A stretch of DNA of 38,199 bases from a virus (Duplodnaviria; Caudoviricetes), in IMG/VR virus record IMGVR_UViG_3300030037_000002, positions 1 through 38,199 of that record; one strand, given 5' to 3'. Made by a program: the position numbers and the translations under genes. The notes under the pieces were generated by a model, which saw only the letters and a program-made list of their open reading frames with translations, did not search any database and was not told the origin of the DNA. Shown here piece by piece: positions 7,389 to 27,724 of the stretch. Within the stretch, counting starts at the first letter, position 1. Each line of letters starts with the position of its first letter.

Positions 7389-7886
7389 TTACTTTACAAC
7401 TCGGCCATTGTTTGCGTAGTTGCCATGTATTTCTTTACGCTTCTGAATTATAGCCTTTTCAGCCTCTTTTATGCTATCAAACCTGCCTACAGTCAAGTTT
7501 TTTGTGCCTGTCCTTATTGCTGCCTTCCATCTATCGGTCTGCTTACAATATGAAACACCTTTTACGCCTGACGTATTACTTTTAGCTAGTGAGGCGTTTC
7601 TGTTGTTTTGCTGATAAGTTGCAGGTCGCAGGTTATCTATACTGTTATCTAGTCTGTCATTATTTCTATGGTCTAAGGTTTCTGGGTAGAACCCGTAATG
7701 ATACATATAGACAAGTCTATGGGCGCGACGATACTTCTTGTTTACCATTATTGCTCTGTAACCGTCAGATGTGACTGTCCCTGCTGGCTTGGTAATATCT
7801 ACGCGTGATTTATACGGGCGATTAATCCAGTAAAGATTACCGTCTTTATATGTGAATAGCTCTTTGACTTGCGATTGCGTAATCAT
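7389..7886 (-). CDS. HNH homing endonuclease with AP2-like C-terminal domain
   Basis: AHRLVY, LDHRNNDRLDNSIDNLR and NTSGVKGVS motifs; GAGGAG RBS favours the ATG at 7886. Confidence 0.92.
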   Translation of the reverse strand: MITQSQVKELFTYKDGNLYWINRPYKSRVDITKPAGTVTSDGYRAIMVNKKYRRAHRLVYMYHYGFYPETLDHRNNDRLDNSIDNLRPATYQQNNRNASLAKSNTSGVKGVSYCKQTDRWKAAIRTGTKNLTVGRFDSIKEAEKAIIQKRKEIHGNYANNGRVVK

Positions 7887-7918
7887 TGTAATACTCCTCA
7901 GCATTTCCTAATTTAAGG

Positions 7919-7970
7919 TTATGGCGGCCCAATTAGGGGTCGGGTTTTCGGGGTATCCCCCTAGCCATAA
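7919..7970 (-). ncRNA. Candidate structured RNA (three-way junction) upstream of the HNH gene
   Basis: Outer stem TTATGGC/GCCATAA, inner hairpins GGGG-ATA-CCCC and CCCGA/TTGGG joined by GAAAA; TGGTATAGT extended -10 just upstream. Confidence 0.5.
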
Positions 7971-7985
7971 GTTAACTATACCATA

Positions 7986-20147: not shown

Positions 20148-20570
20148 TTAGAAAGGCACGTCATCGTCAAAATCAATTGATGGTGCTTGTGGGTTTATAG
20201 CTGGCGCTTGCTTCTGAACAAACCCTGCCGCTGCTGCCTGTTGTGTTGCTTGTTGTTGAAACTTAGCTGGAGCTTGCTGGTTAGGAACAAACCCGCCATT
20301 TTGTTTAGGCGCTTGCGGCACTGCTGCTTTCAACTCATTCAAGCCATAAAATATTTTACCGTTACCTATGATTGGCATTTGAACGCCACCTTCACGTTCC
20401 TCTTTACTGCATGATTGAGTTGCAAATCCATGATCGCCATATTGGCCTTCGTTTTCAGGATCTAAAAACATAGTAATGTCTACATACAGTGCGCCTGATT
20501 GGGCTGCAAAGAAACGCGCTTTATCTAATTTTTTCACATCTAGTTTGATGTTAATTCCGATCTTGCTCAT
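20148..20570 (-). CDS. Single-stranded DNA-binding protein (phage type)
   Basis: Q/A/P-rich linker and acidic tail DFDDDVPF; directly after the ERF gene. Confidence 0.8.
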   Translation of the reverse strand: MSKIGINIKLDVKKLDKARFFAAQSGALYVDITMFLDPENEGQYGDHGFATQSCSKEEREGGVQMPIIGNGKIFYGLNELKAAVPQAPKQNGGFVPNQQAPAKFQQQATQQAAAAGFVQKQAPAINPQAPSIDFDDDVPF

Positions 20571-20599
20571 TTTATTTATTTCCTATATTGGTTGATTGT

Positions 20600-21792: not shown

Positions 21793-21951
21793 ATGAAAGA
21801 GAAAAAGTATAAACCGAAGAATCACGCGAAGATGTATGCACCAGACAATATCCTTGATGCACTAAAGGAAACAGCTAAAGAACAAGGTATGTCGCAAACT
21901 CAATTCATGTTACTAGCTGTTAAAGCTAAAATTAAACAGGTGAATAAATAA
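21793..21951 (+). CDS. 52-aa ribbon-helix-helix (Arc-like) regulator
   Basis: KMYAPDNILDALKETAKEQGMSQTQFMLLAV; TAAGGGT RBS. Confidence 0.7.
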   Translation: MKEKKYKPKNHAKMYAPDNILDALKETAKEQGMSQTQFMLLAVKAKIKQVNK

Positions 21952-22011
21952 TGATTACATCAACAGGAACGGGCATATTTTACAAACCAACCAACAAAGG
22001 GAATAAATAAA

Positions 22012-22149
22012 ATGAACGAGGAATCAAAAAAGAAAGCATGGCTCGGGCTTACAGAGTCAATAGCCGCAAACCAACGAGCTATAAAAACTCAAGTAGCTAG
22101 TGAATATTCTTTTAATGAACTAATGAAGGAGCTTAAATCATGTCAATAA
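22012..22149 (+). CDS. 45-aa hypothetical protein
   Basis: AAGGGA RBS; overlaps the next gene. Confidence 0.55.
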   Translation: MNEESKKKAWLGLTESIAANQRAIKTQVASEYSFNELMKELKSCQ

Positions 22150-22328
22150 ACACTTTACTACCAACCGAAATAGCACGCCACATCCAAAACACTAACCCGC
22201 CAAAGGTTACGTTAACATCATCACATGGAGTTGCTTATAAGTCTGTACGTGAGCGTAAAGAGGCGTTAGCGATTAAAGCTTTGGAAAGTAATCAGTATGA
22301 TTGGTCGCATTGCCAAGACATTCACTAG
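22140..22328 (+). CDS. 62-aa hypothetical protein
   Basis: AAGGAG RBS; followed by a terminator. Confidence 0.65.
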   Translation: MSINTLLPTEIARHIQNTNPPKVTLTSSHGVAYKSVRERKEALAIKALESNQYDWSHCQDIH

Positions 22329-22345
22329 TTAATACTTAAATAGAT

Positions 22346-22368
22346 AAACCCCTTAATTGGGGTTTTTT
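22346..22368 (+). terminator. Intrinsic terminator of the rightward operon
   Basis: AAACCCC-ttaatt-GGGGTTTTTT. Confidence 0.75.
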
Positions 22369-22389: not shown

Positions 22390-22465
22390 AAAAAAGCCCC
22401 GCATTTTACTGCGAGGCTTTACCAACAAGAGGAACATAAATGAGAGGAACCAACAACACACTTAT
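22390..22465 (-). ncRNA. Candidate ~75-nt small RNA / regulatory 3' UTR with its own terminator
   Basis: TGTTATGAT extended -10 at 22479-22471; U/G-rich body with two GTTCCTCT anti-SD tracts; terminator AAAGCCTCGCA-gtaaaa-TGCGGGGCTTTTTT. Confidence 0.5.
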
Positions 22466-22492
22466 ACCCCATCATAACACACTTTATTCCGG

Positions 22493-22648
22493 TTATTTAC
22501 TTAAATCATCAATAAGCTTATTAACGGATTTGGCAAATGTCGATTCAACCGTGTAGCGCTTGCTATCCTCTCTAGCTAAAATTATGAATTCAGGGTTTGC
22601 TATTGCCGTGAGCATAAGTTGCTGCCTAAAAGTTAATTCTTCTTTCAT
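22493..22648 (-). CDS. 51-aa hypothetical protein (cassette array)
   Basis: Starts within the repeat module GAGGGATTATAAAATG. Confidence 0.7.
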   Translation of the reverse strand: MKEELTFRQQLMLTAIANPEFIILAREDSKRYTVESTFAKSVNKLIDDLSK

Positions 22649-22670
22649 TTTATAATCCCTCTATTATGTT

Positions 22671-22964
22671 TTATTTACTAACTGCTTGAAACATTGATGA
22701 CATCTTAAGGTGTTTAATATTCTTACCTTTAACAGCCTTTGACATTGATAGCAAGTAAGCAGAAAGTCTATCTCCGGCATCCTCTGGCGTTGACTGAGGT
22801 GACATATCATTAATCAACATTTGAGCTGTCCAGCAATCTGAGTGCACATCTTTTTCAAATATAGCAACTGATTCATAACCAGTACCTTTTTTAATATCAA
22901 TCATTCCGTGAAAGTTAATTGTAAACTTACCAGCTTCTGCTTTTCTTAATTGTATTGAACTCAT
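22671..22964 (-). CDS. Hypothetical protein (cassette array)
   Basis: Starts in the repeat module. Confidence 0.75.
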   Translation of the reverse strand: MSSIQLRKAEAGKFTINFHGMIDIKKGTGYESVAIFEKDVHSDCWTAQMLINDMSPQSTPEDAGDRLSAYLLSMSKAVKGKNIKHLKMSSMFQAVSK

Positions 22965-22980
22965 TTTATAATCCCTCTAT

Positions 22981-23112
22981 TTATAGGTCTTCGTACTCTT
23001 CTTCAATATTATTAACAACAACCTCGTACTCTCTAGCTGTCAGATCACCACTTTCCAAATCTTCATACGCCTGCTCAAGCGAGTACATTTTATTTATTTC
23101 CGTCTGTCTCAT
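22981..23112 (-). CDS. 43-aa highly acidic protein (cassette array)
   Basis: MRQTEINKMYSLEQAYEDLESGDLTAREYEVVVNNIEEEYEDL; bounded by repeat modules. Confidence 0.75.
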   Translation of the reverse strand: MRQTEINKMYSLEQAYEDLESGDLTAREYEVVVNNIEEEYEDL

Positions 23113-23113
23113 T

Positions 23114-23362
23114 TTATAATCCCTCTTTGTTATTTAATTTTTTGCTAAGTAATTCAGATGGTGACTTGCCACCGATTATGTCGTGATACTCTCCATCAAC
23201 CATGTACTGCAAGAAATAGTGCTTAGCTTCATCAATTGCCTGCTCAATAGTTGGAGCATCAACACCCCACAAACCCTTAATACAATCGACAGTAACTCTT
23301 CCTTTTTTTACTTTTACCTTCGTGCATTTTTCAAACTTTTCAAATTCTGATAATTCTTTCAT
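23114..23362 (-). CDS. Hypothetical protein (cassette array)
   Basis: Starts in the repeat and reads through the next copy (LNNKEGL). Confidence 0.75.
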   Translation of the reverse strand: MKELSEFEKFEKCTKVKVKKGRVTVDCIKGLWGVDAPTIEQAIDEAKHYFLQYMVDGEYHDIIGGKSPSELLSKKLNNKEGL

Positions 23363-23420
23363 TTTATAATCCCTCTTTGTTATTTAATTGTATCTGTTTC
23401 TTTTCGTAATATGCTATTGT

Positions 23421-23633
23421 TTACCTCTGTTTATTTAGCGTAAGCTCTATTGATTGCTGCATTCTCAATAAGTTAGCTCGGCTTGTTACATCAAAATCAA
23501 TTTGGATACTTTTACCCTCATAATCACCAGTTAACGTAAAGTAATACTCGCCATCTTGTTCAAGTAAGTGCATAGTTTGAACGCCTGAGCTATTCTTAGC
23601 GTACATATTAAATCTAACCTCGCTGCTATTCAT
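23421..23633 (-). CDS. Hypothetical protein (cassette array)
   Basis: Starts in the repeat module. Confidence 0.75.
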   Translation of the reverse strand: MNSSEVRFNMYAKNSSGVQTMHLLEQDGEYYFTLTGDYEGKSIQIDFDVTSRANLLRMQQSIELTLNKQR

Positions 23634-23650
23634 CTTATAATCCCTCTTTG

Positions 23651-23989
23651 TTATTTAAAAAAATGTTTTCGTCTTTTCCAGTAAGTGTTATTAAATCCAC
23701 CGATTAATTTTTCACAAGCAGCCCTAGATTTATTGCATATAAATCCACTGCCATCTGGTGTGCCTTGATAAACTAAAAATGAATCATCACACTTGAACTT
23801 AACTACGAAAACCTTTCCGTTAACTTTTATACTAAATCTTGGGTTATCATTTGAGTTATCCATCATTTTACAAAGGTAAGGCTGATCTGACTTAACCCCA
23901 ACTTTAACAAGCTCACTATCATCACTTACATATCCATAAACGAAAAACTTTACACCTTTACTAATATATATAGCATTTGCATCAATCAT
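23651..23989 (-). CDS. Hypothetical protein (cassette array)
   Basis: Starts and stops in repeat modules. Confidence 0.75.
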   Translation of the reverse strand: MIDANAIYISKGVKFFVYGYVSDDSELVKVGVKSDQPYLCKMMDNSNDNPRFSIKVNGKVFVVKFKCDDSFLVYQGTPDGSGFICNKSRAACEKLIGGFNNTYWKRRKHFFK

Positions 23990-24010
23990 TTTATAATCCC
24001 TCTTTGTTAT

Positions 24011-24187
24011 TTAGATAATGCCGTTACTTACTAAAACTTGATGCCAAGTCCTTTCAGTTTCTTGCTTTCTTTCTTTTAACGTTGCTTCAGCTTCGTTTAT
24101 GTCCATGCCGAAGTGCTCTTTAAATTCAACCCTTGTTTGTAGGTTGCTTTTTGTATCCTGAATACTGTGATTTTTGTTGTTGCTCAT
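24011..24187 (-). CDS. 58-aa hypothetical protein overlapping the dnaB 3' end
   Basis: AAGGAAG-ATG; MSNNKNHSIQ...WHQVLVSNGII; its stop is the TAA of the first repeat copy. Confidence 0.55.
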   Translation of the reverse strand: MSNNKNHSIQDTKSNLQTRVEFKEHFGMDINEAEATLKERKQETERTWHQVLVSNGII

Positions 24188-25541
24188 CTTCCTTTCCCTT
24201 ATCTTCGTAAGCCGTTATTGCCGCCTGAGCCTCTAAAGTATTTACATCTTCAAAGTAACCATTTTCAAGTGTCATATATGCAGTTCCATCCCCCCCATTA
24301 CGGTTTAACCTAACGATTGCTTCAGTGTAGTTGTAAGGCACATCCTTGTTGTAAACTTTTTCGCGGTACAATCCAATCCATACGTCACAATCTTGCTCTA
24401 TTTGACCAGTGTCGCGGCTATCTGATGGCATAGGGCGCTTATCATTACGAGATTCTAATCCACGGTTTAGCTGTGTTAATAGTAGTATCACGCATCCGAG
24501 TTCTTTAGCTAATAATTTAAGCTGCTTTGTTATCTCACCATATTTTAAATCGTTCCGTTCTGCTTCTTTATCGCTACCCATTAAAGTTAGGTAATCAATA
24601 ACAATTAATCCGTGCTTGTGAATGCGCTGCTGCTTTCTAACTTCTGATTTAATGAATCCGATAGTTATACCGCCTGTGTCACATATTGCTATTTTAGTTT
24701 GTGCAAGCTCCATATTATCGTTTCCGACACTATCCCAGTATCCAGTGTTATCCATTGGTATAGTGTAAAAGTTGTTACTGTTGCTTTTGGTTTTTTCGCT
24801 TAGCATTCTTTCCCATATATCCACTGAGCGCATCTCAAGTGAGAATACCGAAACTCCTTCGTTACGATTCATTAAATAATGACAAACCATTTTTGTAGCC
24901 AAGAAAGTCTTGCCCATTTTTGGACGAGCTCCAACTACCACTAGTGATCCTGGCTTAACTTGTTTAGGCTTCATTAGTTCGTCAAGTTCAGCAACCCCGA
25001 GATCATAAACGTGTGAGTTACCGTTTTTAAAATCATCTATATCATCTAGCCATTCGCCAGCAATATCTAAACCGCTTTTTAATCCTTGAGTTTTTCTAGA
25101 GTCAATAGATTCTAATATGCCTCCTATAACGGATTCCGCTAAGCCGATTCTTTGCGCGATAGTCCCGTTGACATGGTTTGATATTATATCTTGGAGATCT
25201 GCCATTTTAGATAGCGCATATCTCTCGATAGCAGCGTCTTTGATAGTTTGAGTGTACTGCCTGAACACTTCTGTGTTGCAGCCATGTGAGTAACAACGGT
25301 CTACTTCAAAAATATCTATTTCGGTATGTTTATCAAGGTAACTAGCGACTGATAGCTGATCAAACTGTTTTTCACTGAGTGTTAATGTTTTAATTGCCTT
25401 GTAAATCTCACTGTGAACACGGCTAAAAAACGAGTTAGGCTTTAATGTTCTTAATACGTGACTAGCAATGTCTGAGTCGGAATTGTTTAATCTCATCAAT
25501 CCACCAAGAAGCGATTGCTCCATTTGAAATTCTTTATTCAT
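24126..25541 (-). CDS. dnaB: Replicative DNA helicase, DnaB family
   Basis: GARPKMGKT, FSLEM, IVIDYLTLM, QLNRGLESR and SRDTGQIEQDCD motifs. Confidence 0.96.
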   Translation of the reverse strand: MNKEFQMEQSLLGGLMRLNNSDSDIASHVLRTLKPNSFFSRVHSEIYKAIKTLTLSEKQFDQLSVASYLDKHTEIDIFEVDRCYSHGCNTEVFRQYTQTIKDAAIERYALSKMADLQDIISNHVNGTIAQRIGLAESVIGGILESIDSRKTQGLKSGLDIAGEWLDDIDDFKNGNSHVYDLGVAELDELMKPKQVKPGSLVVVGARPKMGKTFLATKMVCHYLMNRNEGVSVFSLEMRSVDIWERMLSEKTKSNSNNFYTIPMDNTGYWDSVGNDNMELAQTKIAICDTGGITIGFIKSEVRKQQRIHKHGLIVIDYLTLMGSDKEAERNDLKYGEITKQLKLLAKELGCVILLLTQLNRGLESRNDKRPMPSDSRDTGQIEQDCDVWIGLYREKVYNKDVPYNYTEAIVRLNRNGGDGTAYMTLENGYFEDVNTLEAQAAITAYEDKGKEDEQQQKSQYSGYKKQPTNKG

Positions 25542-26169
25542 CGTTGTATCTCTCTTGATTTAGGTATGTAGTTGGCATAGGGATAAATTCTTTTTTTATT
25601 TCTTTGTATGTCGTTGTTGAGTGATCACAAATGTTATCCATGAATACAACCAAATCCCCTTCGCTCATTCCTTTTATCTTTTTGTTAAATAGTTTTTCAG
25701 CAGTTATCTTTGCTTCTTTCTTTGGATACCTAGACCACCAAAAATCGAAAGGTGTTTGTTCTGCTTGCTGAACAATATCTTTATTGTTAGGAGTAGTGTT
25801 AGGAGTACTGTTAAGAACGAGAGACTCTCTGTCGCCTACTAACCGACTCTCTGTCGCCAACTGGGGACTCTCTGTCGCCTCAGGTTCCTGTAACCGACAG
25901 AGTGACACCCCCATTTCATCACCAGACAAAGTATATAAAGACGGTCTGTTTGATCTTCTTTCAACTGTTAAAATACCCATCTTTTCCATTTCAGCTATCT
26001 TTCTTTGAAAAGTCTTCTCGCTCATACCGCAAGAGATTGCCATTTTTGATATTGAATAAAAACTAAATCCATCATCATCGGCATTGTTTGCTAGTTGAAG
26101 TAGCGCCAGCTTAAGGGGTGCGTTTACTATTGGCGTGTCCCACGCTAGAAACGTGTATTTGGCGCTCAT
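25534..26169 (-). CDS. Replication initiator (lambda O-like architecture, N-terminal HTH)
   Basis: KLALLQLANNADDDG..SISKMA HTH; C-terminal FDFWWSRYPKK...PTTYLNQERY; internal iterons; upstream of dnaB. Confidence 0.9.
   Translation of the reverse strand: MSAKYTFLAWDTPIVNAPLKLALLQLANNADDDGFSFYSISKMAISCGMSEKTFQRKIAEMEKMGILTVERRSNRPSLYTLSGDEMGVSLCRLQEPEATESPQLATESRLVGDRESLVLNSTPNTTPNNKDIVQQAEQTPFDFWWSRYPKKEAKITAEKLFNKKIKGMSEGDLVVFMDNICDHSTTTYKEIKKEFIPMPTTYLNQERYNDE
25823..25909. repeat. Iterons, likely replication origin
   Basis: GACTCTCTGTCGCC at 25823, 25845 and 25866 (22/21-bp spacing) plus variant GACAGAGTGACACC at 25896, inside the initiator linker. Confidence 0.8.
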
Positions 26170-26366
26170 TACTTAGACCTCGCATCGTTAATTAAAACCA
26201 AGTCGATAGCCTTATCAACGTCTCTTGCGGCCATTGCTTGTATCTGCGCTAAACCTAACTTCATAGCTGCTCTTGCTACCTTGCTAGAATCAGTTCCTAC
26301 AACAGCTACTACATCTTTAATCTTTAATGCCTGTGTATCGCTAAACTTAATCGGTAAAACTTTCAT
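26169..26366 (-). CDS. 65-aa putative ribbon-helix-helix regulator
   Basis: MKVLPIKFSDTQALKIKDVVAVVGTDSSKVARAAMKLGL; the ORF-track upstream extension overlaps the promoter. Confidence 0.65.
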   Translation of the reverse strand: MKVLPIKFSDTQALKIKDVVAVVGTDSSKVARAAMKLGLAQIQAMAARDVDKAIDLVLINDARSK

Positions 26367-26540: not shown

Positions 26541-26687
26541 ATGAAAACTTATCGAGTAACTTATAAAAACAACTTTGCTAGACAGTTATTAACACTTGAA
26601 GCTAAAGACGAAGCTCAGTTATTAAGATTACTTGATATGCGTTGCATCAATGAATCACAAATCGTTTCAATTAAAGAAGGTTGCTAA
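26541..26687 (+). CDS. 48-aa hypothetical protein
   Basis: MKTYRVTYKNN...; first ORF after the promoter. Confidence 0.6.
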   Translation: MKTYRVTYKNNFARQLLTLEAKDEAQLLRLLDMRCINESQIVSIKEGC

Positions 26688-26689
26688 TA

Positions 26690-27394
26690 ATGAAAGTTTT
26701 AATAGCGTGTGAATACTCAGGAAGGGTAAGGGATGCATTTACAGCAAAAGGTCATGATGCTTTAAGTTGCGATCTCCTTGGGTCGGACTCTCCAGGTAAG
26801 CATTACAAAGGCGACATGTTTAATTTAGATCTTGAATCGTTTGATTTGATTATCGCGCATCCTCCTTGTACTTTTTTAACTGGGTCGGCAGAATGGGCTT
26901 TTGATGATAAACCAATGATCCAAGGCAAACCAAGAAACATCAAACCAGGAACATTAATCGGAGATGCAAGGCGCAAAGCTAGAGAAGATGCTTTGTTATT
27001 TGTTGATAAGATATGGGCACTGCCTGTAAAGAAAATTTGCATTGAAAATCCAGTGGGTGTAATTACAAAAAGATTACCTCACATGGGTAAACCTCAATAT
27101 ATATAACAATATTGGTTTGGTGAAAACGCTAGCAAAAAGACGGGATTGTGGCTAAAGGGCTTGCCAAGGCTAACTCCAACAAATCAAATTGAAGGGCGCA
27201 TGGTTTGTTGTGGTCAGGTTGTTACCGATCGTTACGGGTGCCCTAACTGCTGCGGTGATAAAAATCCAGTTTATCGGTGGGACAATCAAACTAATTCAGG
27301 GCAAAATAAATTACCTCCTTCAAAAGATCGGTGGAAAATAAGAAGCACGACACCGCAAGGTATAGCTAACGCAATGGCTGATCAATGGGGATAG
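26690..27394 (+). pseudogene. Phage-type C5 cytosine methyltransferase-like gene interrupted by an in-frame TAA at 27104-27106
   Basis: KVLIACEYSG, DLIIAHPPCT and IENP before the stop; QYWFG..SKKTGLWLKGLP...RSTTPQGIANAMADQWG after it in the same frame. Confidence 0.8.
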
Positions 27395-27442
27395 TAAGCG
27401 ATTTAAACAACTAACAGCGCTTAGCGCAAGAGGAACTGAATA

Positions 27443-27724
27443 ATGTTAAACATGAAAGCACTTAGAAGAATTAAACCGTTAGGCTGTGTAGATGATTACA
27501 TAGCAGGTCATGGCGAGAATGGCAGACTAAATAAAAGCACCTTGGAAATTGGGCAGGAGTATCGAAAAGCAGTATATGATTTTTTACTGGATAACGGTGC
27601 GGCAACTATCGGCACTATATCGGTGATGTTGAATATTAATGTAAATCTTCGTCCTGCCATTGGTCGTAGTCGTCGCATTACGTATTACAGCCTGGCAAAG
27701 GACGTTATCAATGAAAAAAGATAA
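27443..27724 (+). CDS. Hypothetical protein (possible winged-helix)
   Basis: AGAGGA RBS; AVYDFLLDNGAATIGTISVML pattern. Confidence 0.6.
   Translation: MLNMKALRRIKPLGCVDDYIAGHGENGRLNKSTLEIGQEYRKAVYDFLLDNGAATIGTISVMLNINVNLRPAIGRSRRITYYSLAKDVINEKR

What the first reader, a model, noticed from the sequence alone, without database searches (positions are those of the whole stretch)
22390..22479. Candidate small RNA antisense to the cassette RBS module and to early-transcript 5' ends
Seen: at the end of the array, on the minus strand, an extended -10 (TGTTATGAT) is followed by AUAAGUGUGUUGUUGGUUCCUCUCAUUUAUGUUCCUCUUGUUGGU and a strong terminator. The reverse complement of its 3' half (AACAAGAGGAACATAAATG) aligns with the cassette module AACAAAGAGGGATTATAAAATG with small bulges and G-U pairs. 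It also matches CAAGAGGAAC exactly at the RBS of the gene at 27443. Its 5' UGUGUUGUUG can pair with CAACAACGCA/CAACAACAC found just after three promoters. Inference: one trans-acting RNA, or a cis-acting 3' UTR, could shut off the repeat-tagged early genes as a group. The sequences are low-complexity and anti-SD-like, so chance matching is a real possibility.
Basis: partly seen in the sequence, partly recalled or inferred. Interest (0 to 1): 0.75.

Follow-up and report, generated by a model that had tools for sequence, protein, structure and literature searches.

The report
Phage anti-start-site small RNA family
Four related marine phages carry, right behind a row of small early genes, a conserved promoter-like site, non-coding stretch and terminator that likely make a ~76-base RNA predicted to pair with the ribosome start sites of the phage's own early genes and so would switch them down together, although the RNA has not been observed.

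Summary
The unit is real and conserved. An extended -10, a 45-nt pyrimidine-rich body and a strong terminator (22390-22479, minus strand) recur in three other likely Colwellia phages: one copy is 92% identical, two have diverged bodies. All sit at the end of the small-gene array behind the replication genes, with unrelated flanking genes and no conserved reading frame. No Rfam family fits.

The body complements a whole start site: A/C-rich leader, SD, AUAAA spacer and AUG. Pairing with the phage's own array beats shuffles in three members (0-3 of 40) and is weak in the fourth. None of 1,798 Colwellia start sites pairs as well.

Two claims fail: the 27443 match is not conserved, and the promoter-leader pairing is no better than shuffles. 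SD style co-varies with the RNA, but energies show no clear own-phage preference.

Best reading (~55%): a trans-acting translational repressor of the phage's own early accessory genes, working like OppZ/CarZ or P1 C4 without belonging to either family. Expression is untested. The scan noted similar anti-RBS RNAs in other genomes, none a sequence look-alike.

The parts
22467..22479 (-). Predicted promoter: extended -10 TGTTATGAT (22479-22471) plus G-rich discriminator; no good -35
   Evidence: a -10 + GRG + TATAA start motif is present in 4 of 4 members; function inferred
22421..22465 (-). 45-nt body of the predicted sRNA: weak 5' hairpin (AUAAGUG with CAUUUAU) carrying the first UUCCUC in its loop, anti-AUG/anti-spacer CAUUUAU, single-stranded second UUCCUC and UUGUUG
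   Evidence: fold and unpaired probabilities; 5' helix 88.5% of cells paired but no two-sided change
22390..22420 (-). Intrinsic terminator AAAGCC...GGCUUUUUU; ends both the sRNA and the replication/cassette operon
   Evidence: 3 of 10 pairs change on both sides across 4 members, 97.5% of cells paired
21990..22027 (+). Best predicted target: start site of the 45-aa gene 22012-22149 in the convergent operon
   Evidence: -30.0 kcal/mol, 0 of 60 shuffles; best of 65 start sites and of 7,593 windows
22645..22675 (-). RBS module copy 1 (start of gene 22493-22648), predicted target
   Evidence: -20.2
22961..22981 (-). RBS module copy 2 (gene 22671-22964; PHROG 35489, unknown function), predicted target
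   Evidence: -18.2
23109..23139 (-). RBS module copy 3 (gene 22981-23112), predicted target
   Evidence: -23.2
23359..23389 (-). RBS module copy 4 (gene 23114-23362), predicted target
   Evidence: -19.9
23630..23660 (-). RBS module copy 5 (gene 23421-23633), predicted target
   Evidence: -20.8
23986..24016 (-). RBS module copy 6 (gene 23651-23989), predicted target
   Evidence: -17.0
22346..22365 (.). Separate two-way terminator closing the convergent operon 21793-22328, so that the two transcripts need not overlap
27427..27436 (+). Exact 10-nt match in the RBS of gene 27443; tested and not supported as a conserved target

Best explanation
The stretch is a conserved non-coding unit in four related phages that is likely transcribed from its own promoter into a ~76-nt RNA, which is predicted to base-pair in trans over the ribosome start sites of the phage's own small early genes and would thereby lower their translation as a group. 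SHOWN: the anatomy, the conservation with sharp ends at promoter and U tract, the fixed position at the end of the post-replication small-gene array, and the lack of a conserved reading frame. COMPUTED: the 3' half pairs with leader, SD and spacer; the central CAU/UAU pairs with the AUG; the 5' half often pairs with the first codons. Predicted targets are the six repeat-tagged cassettes and, most strongly, one gene of the convergent operon. INFERRED: transcription, help from host Hfq through the U tail, ribosome exclusion, and the purpose. The likely purpose is a delayed brake on strongly translated, probably host-affecting early proteins in phages with no detected integrase. Since the cassettes keep the same start module when the genes behind it are swapped, any newly acquired cassette would fall under the same control.
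For: (1) The close relative keeps the unit at 92% over 102 nt, and similarity stops at the promoter and the U tract while the flanking genes are unrelated. Two divergent members sit at the same position with the same start motif, central TTTATR and AAAGCC terminator; 3 terminator pairs change on both sides. (2) There is no conserved ORF: opposite-strand frames are 38, 11, none and 6 codons, and two members have no sense start. (3) Own array against own RNA beats dinucleotide shuffles: window 3/40, relative 0/40, G060 0/40, G059 2/40; array-minus-host gap 0, 0, 0 and 1 of 40. Array start sites rank 2-13 of 68 (window), 2-8 of 25 (relative) and 1, 2, 3, 9, 27 of 67 (G060). (4) The best own start site (-30.0, -31.2, -24.7, -25.0) is matched by 0 of 1,798 Colwellia start sites for each RNA. 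(5) The four members' bodies score -19 to -23 (top-5 mean; the relative's -28.5 is inflated by duplicated loci), while the best of 31 other intergenic pre-terminator stretches in 16 records scores -15.7. (6) Phages whose RNA has UUCCUC have GAGG[GA]A rather than GAGAG[AT] early SDs (12 vs 4), and those with CUCUCUC the reverse (4 vs 13); Fisher p = 0.005, post hoc. (7) The relative's RNA binds its own best target better than the window RNA does (-31.2 vs -26.6). (8) Hfq is present in 3 of 3 Colwellia genomes.
Against: No transcript evidence was available. The cassette module is one repeated sequence, so the group test is a single test per lineage. Own-RNA preference is weak. The window array binds the relative's RNA as well as its own (-20.6 vs -19.9). 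The G059 array is bound worst by its own RNA (-11.9 vs -15.3 to -16.7), with ranks 8-67 of 78. The G060 RNA is the best binder of top early sites in all four phages and binds a G059 site at -35.6. The best target is not orthologous between members, and the NinH-like orthologue in G060 is bound at only -14.4 by its own RNA. The 92% identity is no higher than that of neighbouring coding pieces (85-92%). Much of the early-versus-late difference persists in shuffles. The unit is patchy: a match was found in 2 of 10 clade records searched whole or nearly whole, and in 2 of the 5 that are at least 90% complete. The host background is one surrogate genome (2.4 of 3.2 Mb, automatic start calls), and the energies ignore ribosomes and Hfq.
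Confidence: 0.55

Rival explanations
1. The RNA is real but acts mainly on the host, as an Hfq-dependent sRNA repressing host mRNAs, a broad anti-SD competitor, or an Hfq sink (like DicF, PreS or VpdS). The fit to phage start sites would then be a by-product of an anti-consensus sequence.
For: U tail and unpaired seed; Hfq in the likely host; weak own-phage specificity; phage sRNAs acting on hosts are documented (PMC12197685, parts 1-2 read). One host site, an aspartate-semialdehyde-dehydrogenase-like gene (label recalled from the sequence), ranks 1, 16, 44 and 25 of 1,798 for the four RNAs.
Against: No host site reaches the best own site for any RNA. Only 7-20 of 1,798 reach -20, and no host site is in the top 1% for all of the three divergent RNAs. 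A phage would not need near-complete cover of its own start sites for a host role.
Confidence: 0.15
2. The RNA is an exclusion factor: made by a resident phage, it silences the early genes of incoming related phages that share the same start modules.
For: Cross-binding is as strong as, or stronger than, self-binding. The module is shared by the window, the relative and G059. RNA-based exclusion and immunity are known (STnc6030, C4; PMC12197685, PMC5320573 passages).
Against: It would hit the resident's own genes equally. No integrase was found in 4 of 4 carrier records, so a lasting resident state is unproven. Non-carrier clade phages have fewer strong sites (for the window RNA 7 of 278 at -20 or better, against 5 of 68 own).
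Confidence: 0.1
3. It is a cis-acting 3' UTR of the operon that folds back on the nearest cassette start site, with no separate transcript.
For: It is on the same strand and shares the terminator. A 302-nt fold pairs the body with the 22648 start site.
Against: The promoter-like motif is kept in 4 of 4 members behind unrelated genes. The best partners lie on the opposite-strand transcript. The nearest start site is among the weakest array partners in the relative (-14.5, rank 9 of 26).
Confidence: 0.1
4. There is no RNA function: the stretch is a terminator plus the leftover start site of a gene on the opposite strand, and the complementarity is simple homology.
For: The plus strand reads terminator, SD and ATG, and gives a 38-codon ORF here. 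Three of the seven loci returned by my family pattern, from an unrelated phage group, are just such terminator-RBS junctions.
Against: The opposite-strand frame is 38, 11, absent and 6 codons in the four members. The U tract and promoter motif are on the minus strand and are conserved while the body diverges in a way that stays anti-start-site.
Confidence: 0.07

Closest known systems
OppZ and CarZ, autoregulatory 3' UTR sRNAs of Vibrio cholerae (PMC7398697; abstract and outline read)
   Same: [quoted passage not shown]
   Different: They are cut from the mRNA by RNase E and are chromosomal. This unit is phage-borne, appears to have its own promoter, and is predicted to cover many repeated start sites plus a gene in another operon.
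C4 antisense RNA of phages P1/P7 (PMC5320573, passages read)
   Same: A ~77-nt phage RNA that pairs imperfectly with phage mRNA and occludes ribosome-binding sites.
   Different: C4 has three stem-loops, is RNase P-processed and serves immunity in lysogeny. This RNA has a weak hairpin plus terminator, gives no Rfam C4 hit, and lies in integrase-less phages.
Phage-encoded Hfq-binding sRNAs DicF, PreS, VpdS (PMC12197685, parts 1-2 of 6 read)
   Same: Short trans-acting phage sRNAs, two of them from lambdoid early regions.
   Different: Their described targets are mainly host mRNAs or Hfq itself; here the best predicted partners are the phage's own start sites.
sar RNA (P22), OOP and aQ RNAs (lambda) (same review)
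   Same: Phage RNAs that lower expression of the phage's own genes by pairing; sar blocks translation initiation.
   Different: They are antisense to a single overlapping gene (overlap recalled for sar and OOP). This RNA overlaps no conserved gene and is multi-target.
Start-associated sequences (SAS) of Cluster K mycobacteriophages (PMC3203893, passages read)
   Same: A repeated, asymmetric, SD-containing sequence at the starts of non-structural genes; the authors left open whether an RNA or a protein binds it.
   Different: Different sequence and host phylum, and no partner RNA is named in the passages read. Here a candidate partner RNA lies beside the array.
GcvB (Rfam RF00022)
   Same: Weak Rfam resemblance, which I read as mostly the terminator, and a GU-rich stretch.
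   Different: 20.4 bits against a cut-off of 42; about a third of the length; the GU stretch is not kept across the family; GcvB was not found in 5 Colwellia genomes.

Membership tests
Trans-encoded Hfq-type base-pairing sRNA | Short non-coding unit with promoter and intrinsic terminator ending in a U tract | tested here: met
   By sequence only:
Trans-encoded Hfq-type base-pairing sRNA | Accessible seed with imperfect complementarity to start sites encoded elsewhere | tested here: met
   Computed: both UUCCUC blocks largely unpaired; pairing above shuffles
Trans-encoded Hfq-type base-pairing sRNA | Discrete transcript exists and represses its targets | not testable with these tools
   No RNA holder listed
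Trans-encoded Hfq-type base-pairing sRNA | Binds Hfq | not testable with these tools
   Only the presence of Hfq in 3 of 3 Colwellia genomes was shown
OppZ/CarZ-type autoregulatory 3' UTR sRNA | At the operon's 3' end, same strand, pairs with own operon | tested here: met
   Position in 4 of 4 members; pairing clear in 3 of 4
OppZ/CarZ-type autoregulatory 3' UTR sRNA | Released from the mRNA by RNase E rather than made from its own promoter | tested here: inconclusive
   A conserved -10 motif points to a primary transcript; processing cannot be tested
C4 antisense RNA (P1/P7) | Match to the Rfam model | tested here: not met
   No hit in the window at E <= 5 or in the three relatives' loci at E <= 2
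C4 antisense RNA (P1/P7) | Three stem-loops closed by an RNase P-processed stem | tested here: not met
   Predicted fold is one weak hairpin plus a terminator in all four
Cis-encoded antisense RNA (sar/OOP type) | Transcribed opposite a conserved target gene | tested here: not met
   Opposite-strand frames of 38, 11, none and 6 codons
GcvB (RF00022) | Score above the gathering cut-off, ~200 nt, conserved GU-rich seed | tested here: not met
   20.4 vs 42 bits; ~76 nt; GU block absent in 2 of 4 members
SAS-like repeated start modules (the cassette repeat) | Asymmetric SD-containing repeat at the starts of non-structural genes, one orientation | tested here: met
   6 copies here and 5 in the relative before different small genes; analogy only, the sequence differs from the Cluster K 13-mer

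The most novel reading that the evidence does not exclude
These integrase-less phages run an RNA-addressed regulon. Swappable small-gene cassettes carry a standard start module that is both ribosome site and RNA operator, and one adjacent small RNA, co-evolving with the phage's SD style, switches off whatever genes are plugged in, including those of competing relatives. It would be an RNA counterpart of a repressor-operator system, acting at translation.
Probability: 0.3. Interest if true: 0.8.

Novelty: new variant of a known kind. Interest (0 to 1): 0.6.

Why it matters
Repeated start-site sequences before phage accessory genes were described in 2011 with the open question of whether an RNA or a protein reads them (PMC3203893, passages read). 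This locus supplies a specific partner RNA, named targets and four natural variants, so the question can be tested with plasmid reporters and no phage isolate. If true, it shows how a phage without a detected repressor or integrase can time a changing set of early genes after transcription, and it adds an unannotated RNA family in phages of a marine bacterial genus. My searches listed no paper on this RNA or on a phage sRNA that silences repeated RBS modules of its own genes. The library lacks most subscription papers, so this is not proof of absence.

Tried and rejected
EXPRESSION. No RNA holder was listed, which is no evidence either way. Contigs of three DNA runs showed, within the element, only the window's form and the close relative's form.

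HOST HOMOLOGUE. The exact core was found in 0 GTDB stretches. BLAST of 55 Colwellia genomes gave 14 weak matches, 12 of them over the terminator only. Model hits in 55 genus and 151 family genomes reached at most 46 bits; the 15 best genus hits and the 2 new family hits that I read were ordinary gene terminators without the body. In those searches only 73 or 26 candidates per genome were scored.

CHANCE PATTERN HITS SET ASIDE. L003, L004, L006 (Glu-Glu-Pro-Thr codons); L010, L011; L132, L133, L137, L138 (4 of the 7 loci). L009 is the window's own sequence.

OTHER SEARCHES WITH NO MEMBER. INPHARED phages gave terminator-only hits. The model found no member among DnaB-related loci or in 8 clade records, or in L195. 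Pseudoalteromonas phage PS_L5 and a 24.5-kb part of Vibrio phage 1.029.O gave nothing comparable in the terminator screen. The neighbouring 62-aa protein found no locus.

TARGETS REJECTED. The 27443 RBS, the three promoter leaders, and the tail gene 32652 (12 of 60 shuffles as good). GcvB and C4 membership were rejected.

METHOD NOTES. One pair count used a mis-registered structure and was discarded (redone). Model R1 includes promoter columns and its RNAalifold structure pairs promoter bases, so it is a search tool only; the four members score high by construction. The host background lacks the last 0.36 Mb of the contig and the smaller contigs.

Full report
CONTEXT. The window is a complete circular phage genome (127-nt terminal repeat; 100% complete). 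It has a lambdoid-style early region: replication initiator 25534-26169, DnaB-like helicase 24126-25541, Erf, SSB, NinB and NinG (PHROGs). No repressor or integrase was named, and the Pfam integrase family was absent from 4 of 4 carrier records and one non-carrier. The closest named DnaB relative (53%) lies in a Colwellia MAG contig, so Colwellia is the likely but unproven host. Behind dnaB run six small genes, each starting with the same module; five have no PHROG match and one matches a family of unknown function.

OBSERVATION. The extended -10 is at 22479-22471(-), the body starts at about 22465, and the terminator stem is 22420-22393. The RNA would be about 76 nt. It folds into a weak 5' hairpin and a strong terminator (z -4.3, 0 of 200 shuffles), and both UUCCUC blocks are largely unpaired. 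Rfam gives only a sub-threshold GcvB hit (20.4 vs 42 bits).

A FAMILY OF FOUR. An exact-motif scan found one close relative (L001/L008; the two records are identical where they overlap). It keeps the unit at 92% over 102 nt, with similarity ending at the promoter and the U tract, and has five copies of the same RBS module before different genes. A clade-marker protein (26169-26366) gave 12 more loci. A screen of terminators for upstream anti-start-site sequence found two divergent members, G060:36162-36238(+) and G059:4479-4549(-). Both lie at the end of the small-gene array behind the helicase, on the same strand. All four share -10 + GRG + TATAA, a central TTTATR between two anti-SD blocks, and an AAAGCC...GGCTTTTTT terminator. 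Three terminator pairs change on both sides; the 5' helix is 88.5% paired without two-sided changes. No reading frame is conserved. A degenerate pattern over IMG/VR returned 7 loci: the 3 known relatives and 4 chance hits. The unit is patchy, found in 2 of 10 clade records searched whole or nearly whole, and no host copy was found (see Tried and rejected).

PAIRING IN THE WINDOW (ViennaRNA co-folding, -30 to +20 around the start codon). The best partner is the start of gene 22012(+): -30.0 kcal/mol, 0 of 60 shuffles. The best start site reached by any shuffle was -28.2, and 22012 is also the top of 7,593 genome windows. The six cassette starts rank 2, 4, 5, 6, 9 and 14 of 65. Their mean of -19.9 is reached by 1 of 60 dinucleotide shuffles, 0 of 40 anti-SD-preserving shuffles and 3 of 40 in a repeat run. 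The 3' half carries most of the cassette pairing. Gene 27443 (rank 11, 5 of 60; different RBS in the relative) and the three promoter leaders (35, 35 and 65 of 100) are not above chance.

PAIRING IN RELATIVES. In the close relative the best partner is again in the convergent operon, a NinH-like HTH gene (Pfam), at -31.2 with its own RNA and -26.6 with the window's. Its cassettes rank 2, 3, 4, 5 and 9 of 26 (0 of 40 in both controls). In G060 the array ranks 1, 2, 3, 9 and 27 of 67 (0 of 40) and prefers its own RNA (-20.0 vs -14.2 to -16.5). In G059 the result is weak: ranks 8-67 of 78, 2 of 40, and its own RNA is the worst of the four on that array. Among 36 counted intergenic pre-terminator stretches in 16 records (the relative's copy counted twice), the members score -19 or better and the best of the other 31 scores -15.7; pyrimidine richness contributes to that gap.

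HOST BACKGROUND. Of 1,798 automatically called start sites from 2.4 Mb of one Colwellia genome, 7-20 reach -20, one reaches -25, and none matches the best own site of any RNA. No site is in the top 1% for all three divergent RNAs; the most consistent is an asd-like gene (label recalled). This is a surrogate host, so host targets are not excluded.

CO-VARIATION. At motif level the UUCCUC phages favour GAGG[GA]A SDs (12 vs 4) and the CUCUCUC phages favour GAGAG[AT] (13 vs 4). Both motifs are rare in four non-carriers (1-3 and 0-1 of 60-95 start sites). The motifs were chosen after seeing the RNAs and only two lineages face two, so p = 0.005 overstates the case. At energy level there is no clear own-phage preference, since the G060 RNA binds best almost everywhere.

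MECHANISM. Shown: anatomy, conservation, position and non-coding status. Computed: complementarity to whole start sites of own early genes, above shuffle and host backgrounds in three of four members. Inferred: transcription from the extended -10, Hfq help (Hfq in 3 of 3 Colwellia genomes), ribosome occlusion, and use as a delayed brake on strongly translated early accessory genes (0.55). Rivals are host-directed or generic anti-SD action (0.15), exclusion of related phages (0.10), cis fold-back (0.10; possible in a 302-nt fold) and a functionless relic (0.07). The self and exclusion readings can both hold.

COMPARISON AND NOVELTY. It would work like OppZ/CarZ (operon-end RNA pairing with its own transcript; PMC7398697, abstract and outline) and like P1 C4 (phage RNA occluding phage RBSs; PMC5320573, passages). 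It fails C4's membership features and OppZ's is inconclusive. The repeat resembles Cluster K SAS, whose reader was left open (PMC3203893, passages). The review PMC12197685 (parts 1-2 of 6) lists no multi-target, self-directed anti-RBS phage RNA in the parts read. Other papers were seen only as search listings; no supplements were read. The scan's own notes describe similar anti-RBS RNAs in other genomes, with no look-alike sequence. These are unchecked and were found after my analysis; they are not counted as support. Verdict: a new RNA family, a new variant of a known kind, interest 0.6, held back by the lack of expression data and the small family.

Noticed in passing
window 7906-7971 (-): Rfam int-alpA match above the gathering score (39.7 vs 35.8 bits), directly upstream of a free-standing HNH endonuclease gene (7389-7904) that sits between the scaffold and major head genes.
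   Followed up: no
window 21951-22010 (+); L008:935-994: A 19-codon mini-ORF with an identical peptide in the relative. Its 3' end overlaps the 22012 start site, which is the RNA's best predicted target.
   Followed up: partly
L008:4523(+), L014:6282(-), L015:6309(-), L111:8226(-), L112:826(-), L114:8229(-), L115:8232(-), L116:4271(-), L117:8220(-), L119:136(-): Many clade members have a terminator on the strand opposite the small repressor-like gene and the replication-initiator start, placed to end an antisense RNA over the rep start (OOP-like or plasmid cop-rep-like; comparison recalled). The window lacks the gap because the two genes overlap at 26169.
   Followed up: no
window 26681-27106 and 27146-27394 (+): A DNA methyltransferase gene in two pieces; both match PHROG 757 (profile positions 15-142 and 163-219).
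   Followed up: no
window 9838, 26511 (+), 21673 (-): Three sigma-70-like promoters are each followed by nearly the same CA-rich leader start. They are not supported as RNA targets, so the shared leader is unexplained.
   Followed up: partly
window 20562-20597 and 21985-22020: The SSB and 22012 start sites are 83% alike over 36 nt in inverted orientation, a second start-site module (I2).
   Followed up: no
window 25816-25880: Three 22-nt iteron-like repeats inside the replication-initiator gene, likely the origin (D14).
   Followed up: no
window 22393-22420; L178, L179, L182, L189: The terminator stem is nearly the same as a chromosomal Colwellia terminator behind a 222-aa membrane protein gene (yccA-like, label recalled); host origin or convergence.
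   Followed up: partly
L013:5994-12704: The close relative has a different virion module next to a similar early region, while sharing short promoter, RBS and RNA modules at 82-100% identity, which suggests exchange at regulatory modules.
   Followed up: no
L109: A clade member without the RNA has its own three-copy RBS-like repeat; no partner RNA was found in the terminator screen.
   Followed up: partly
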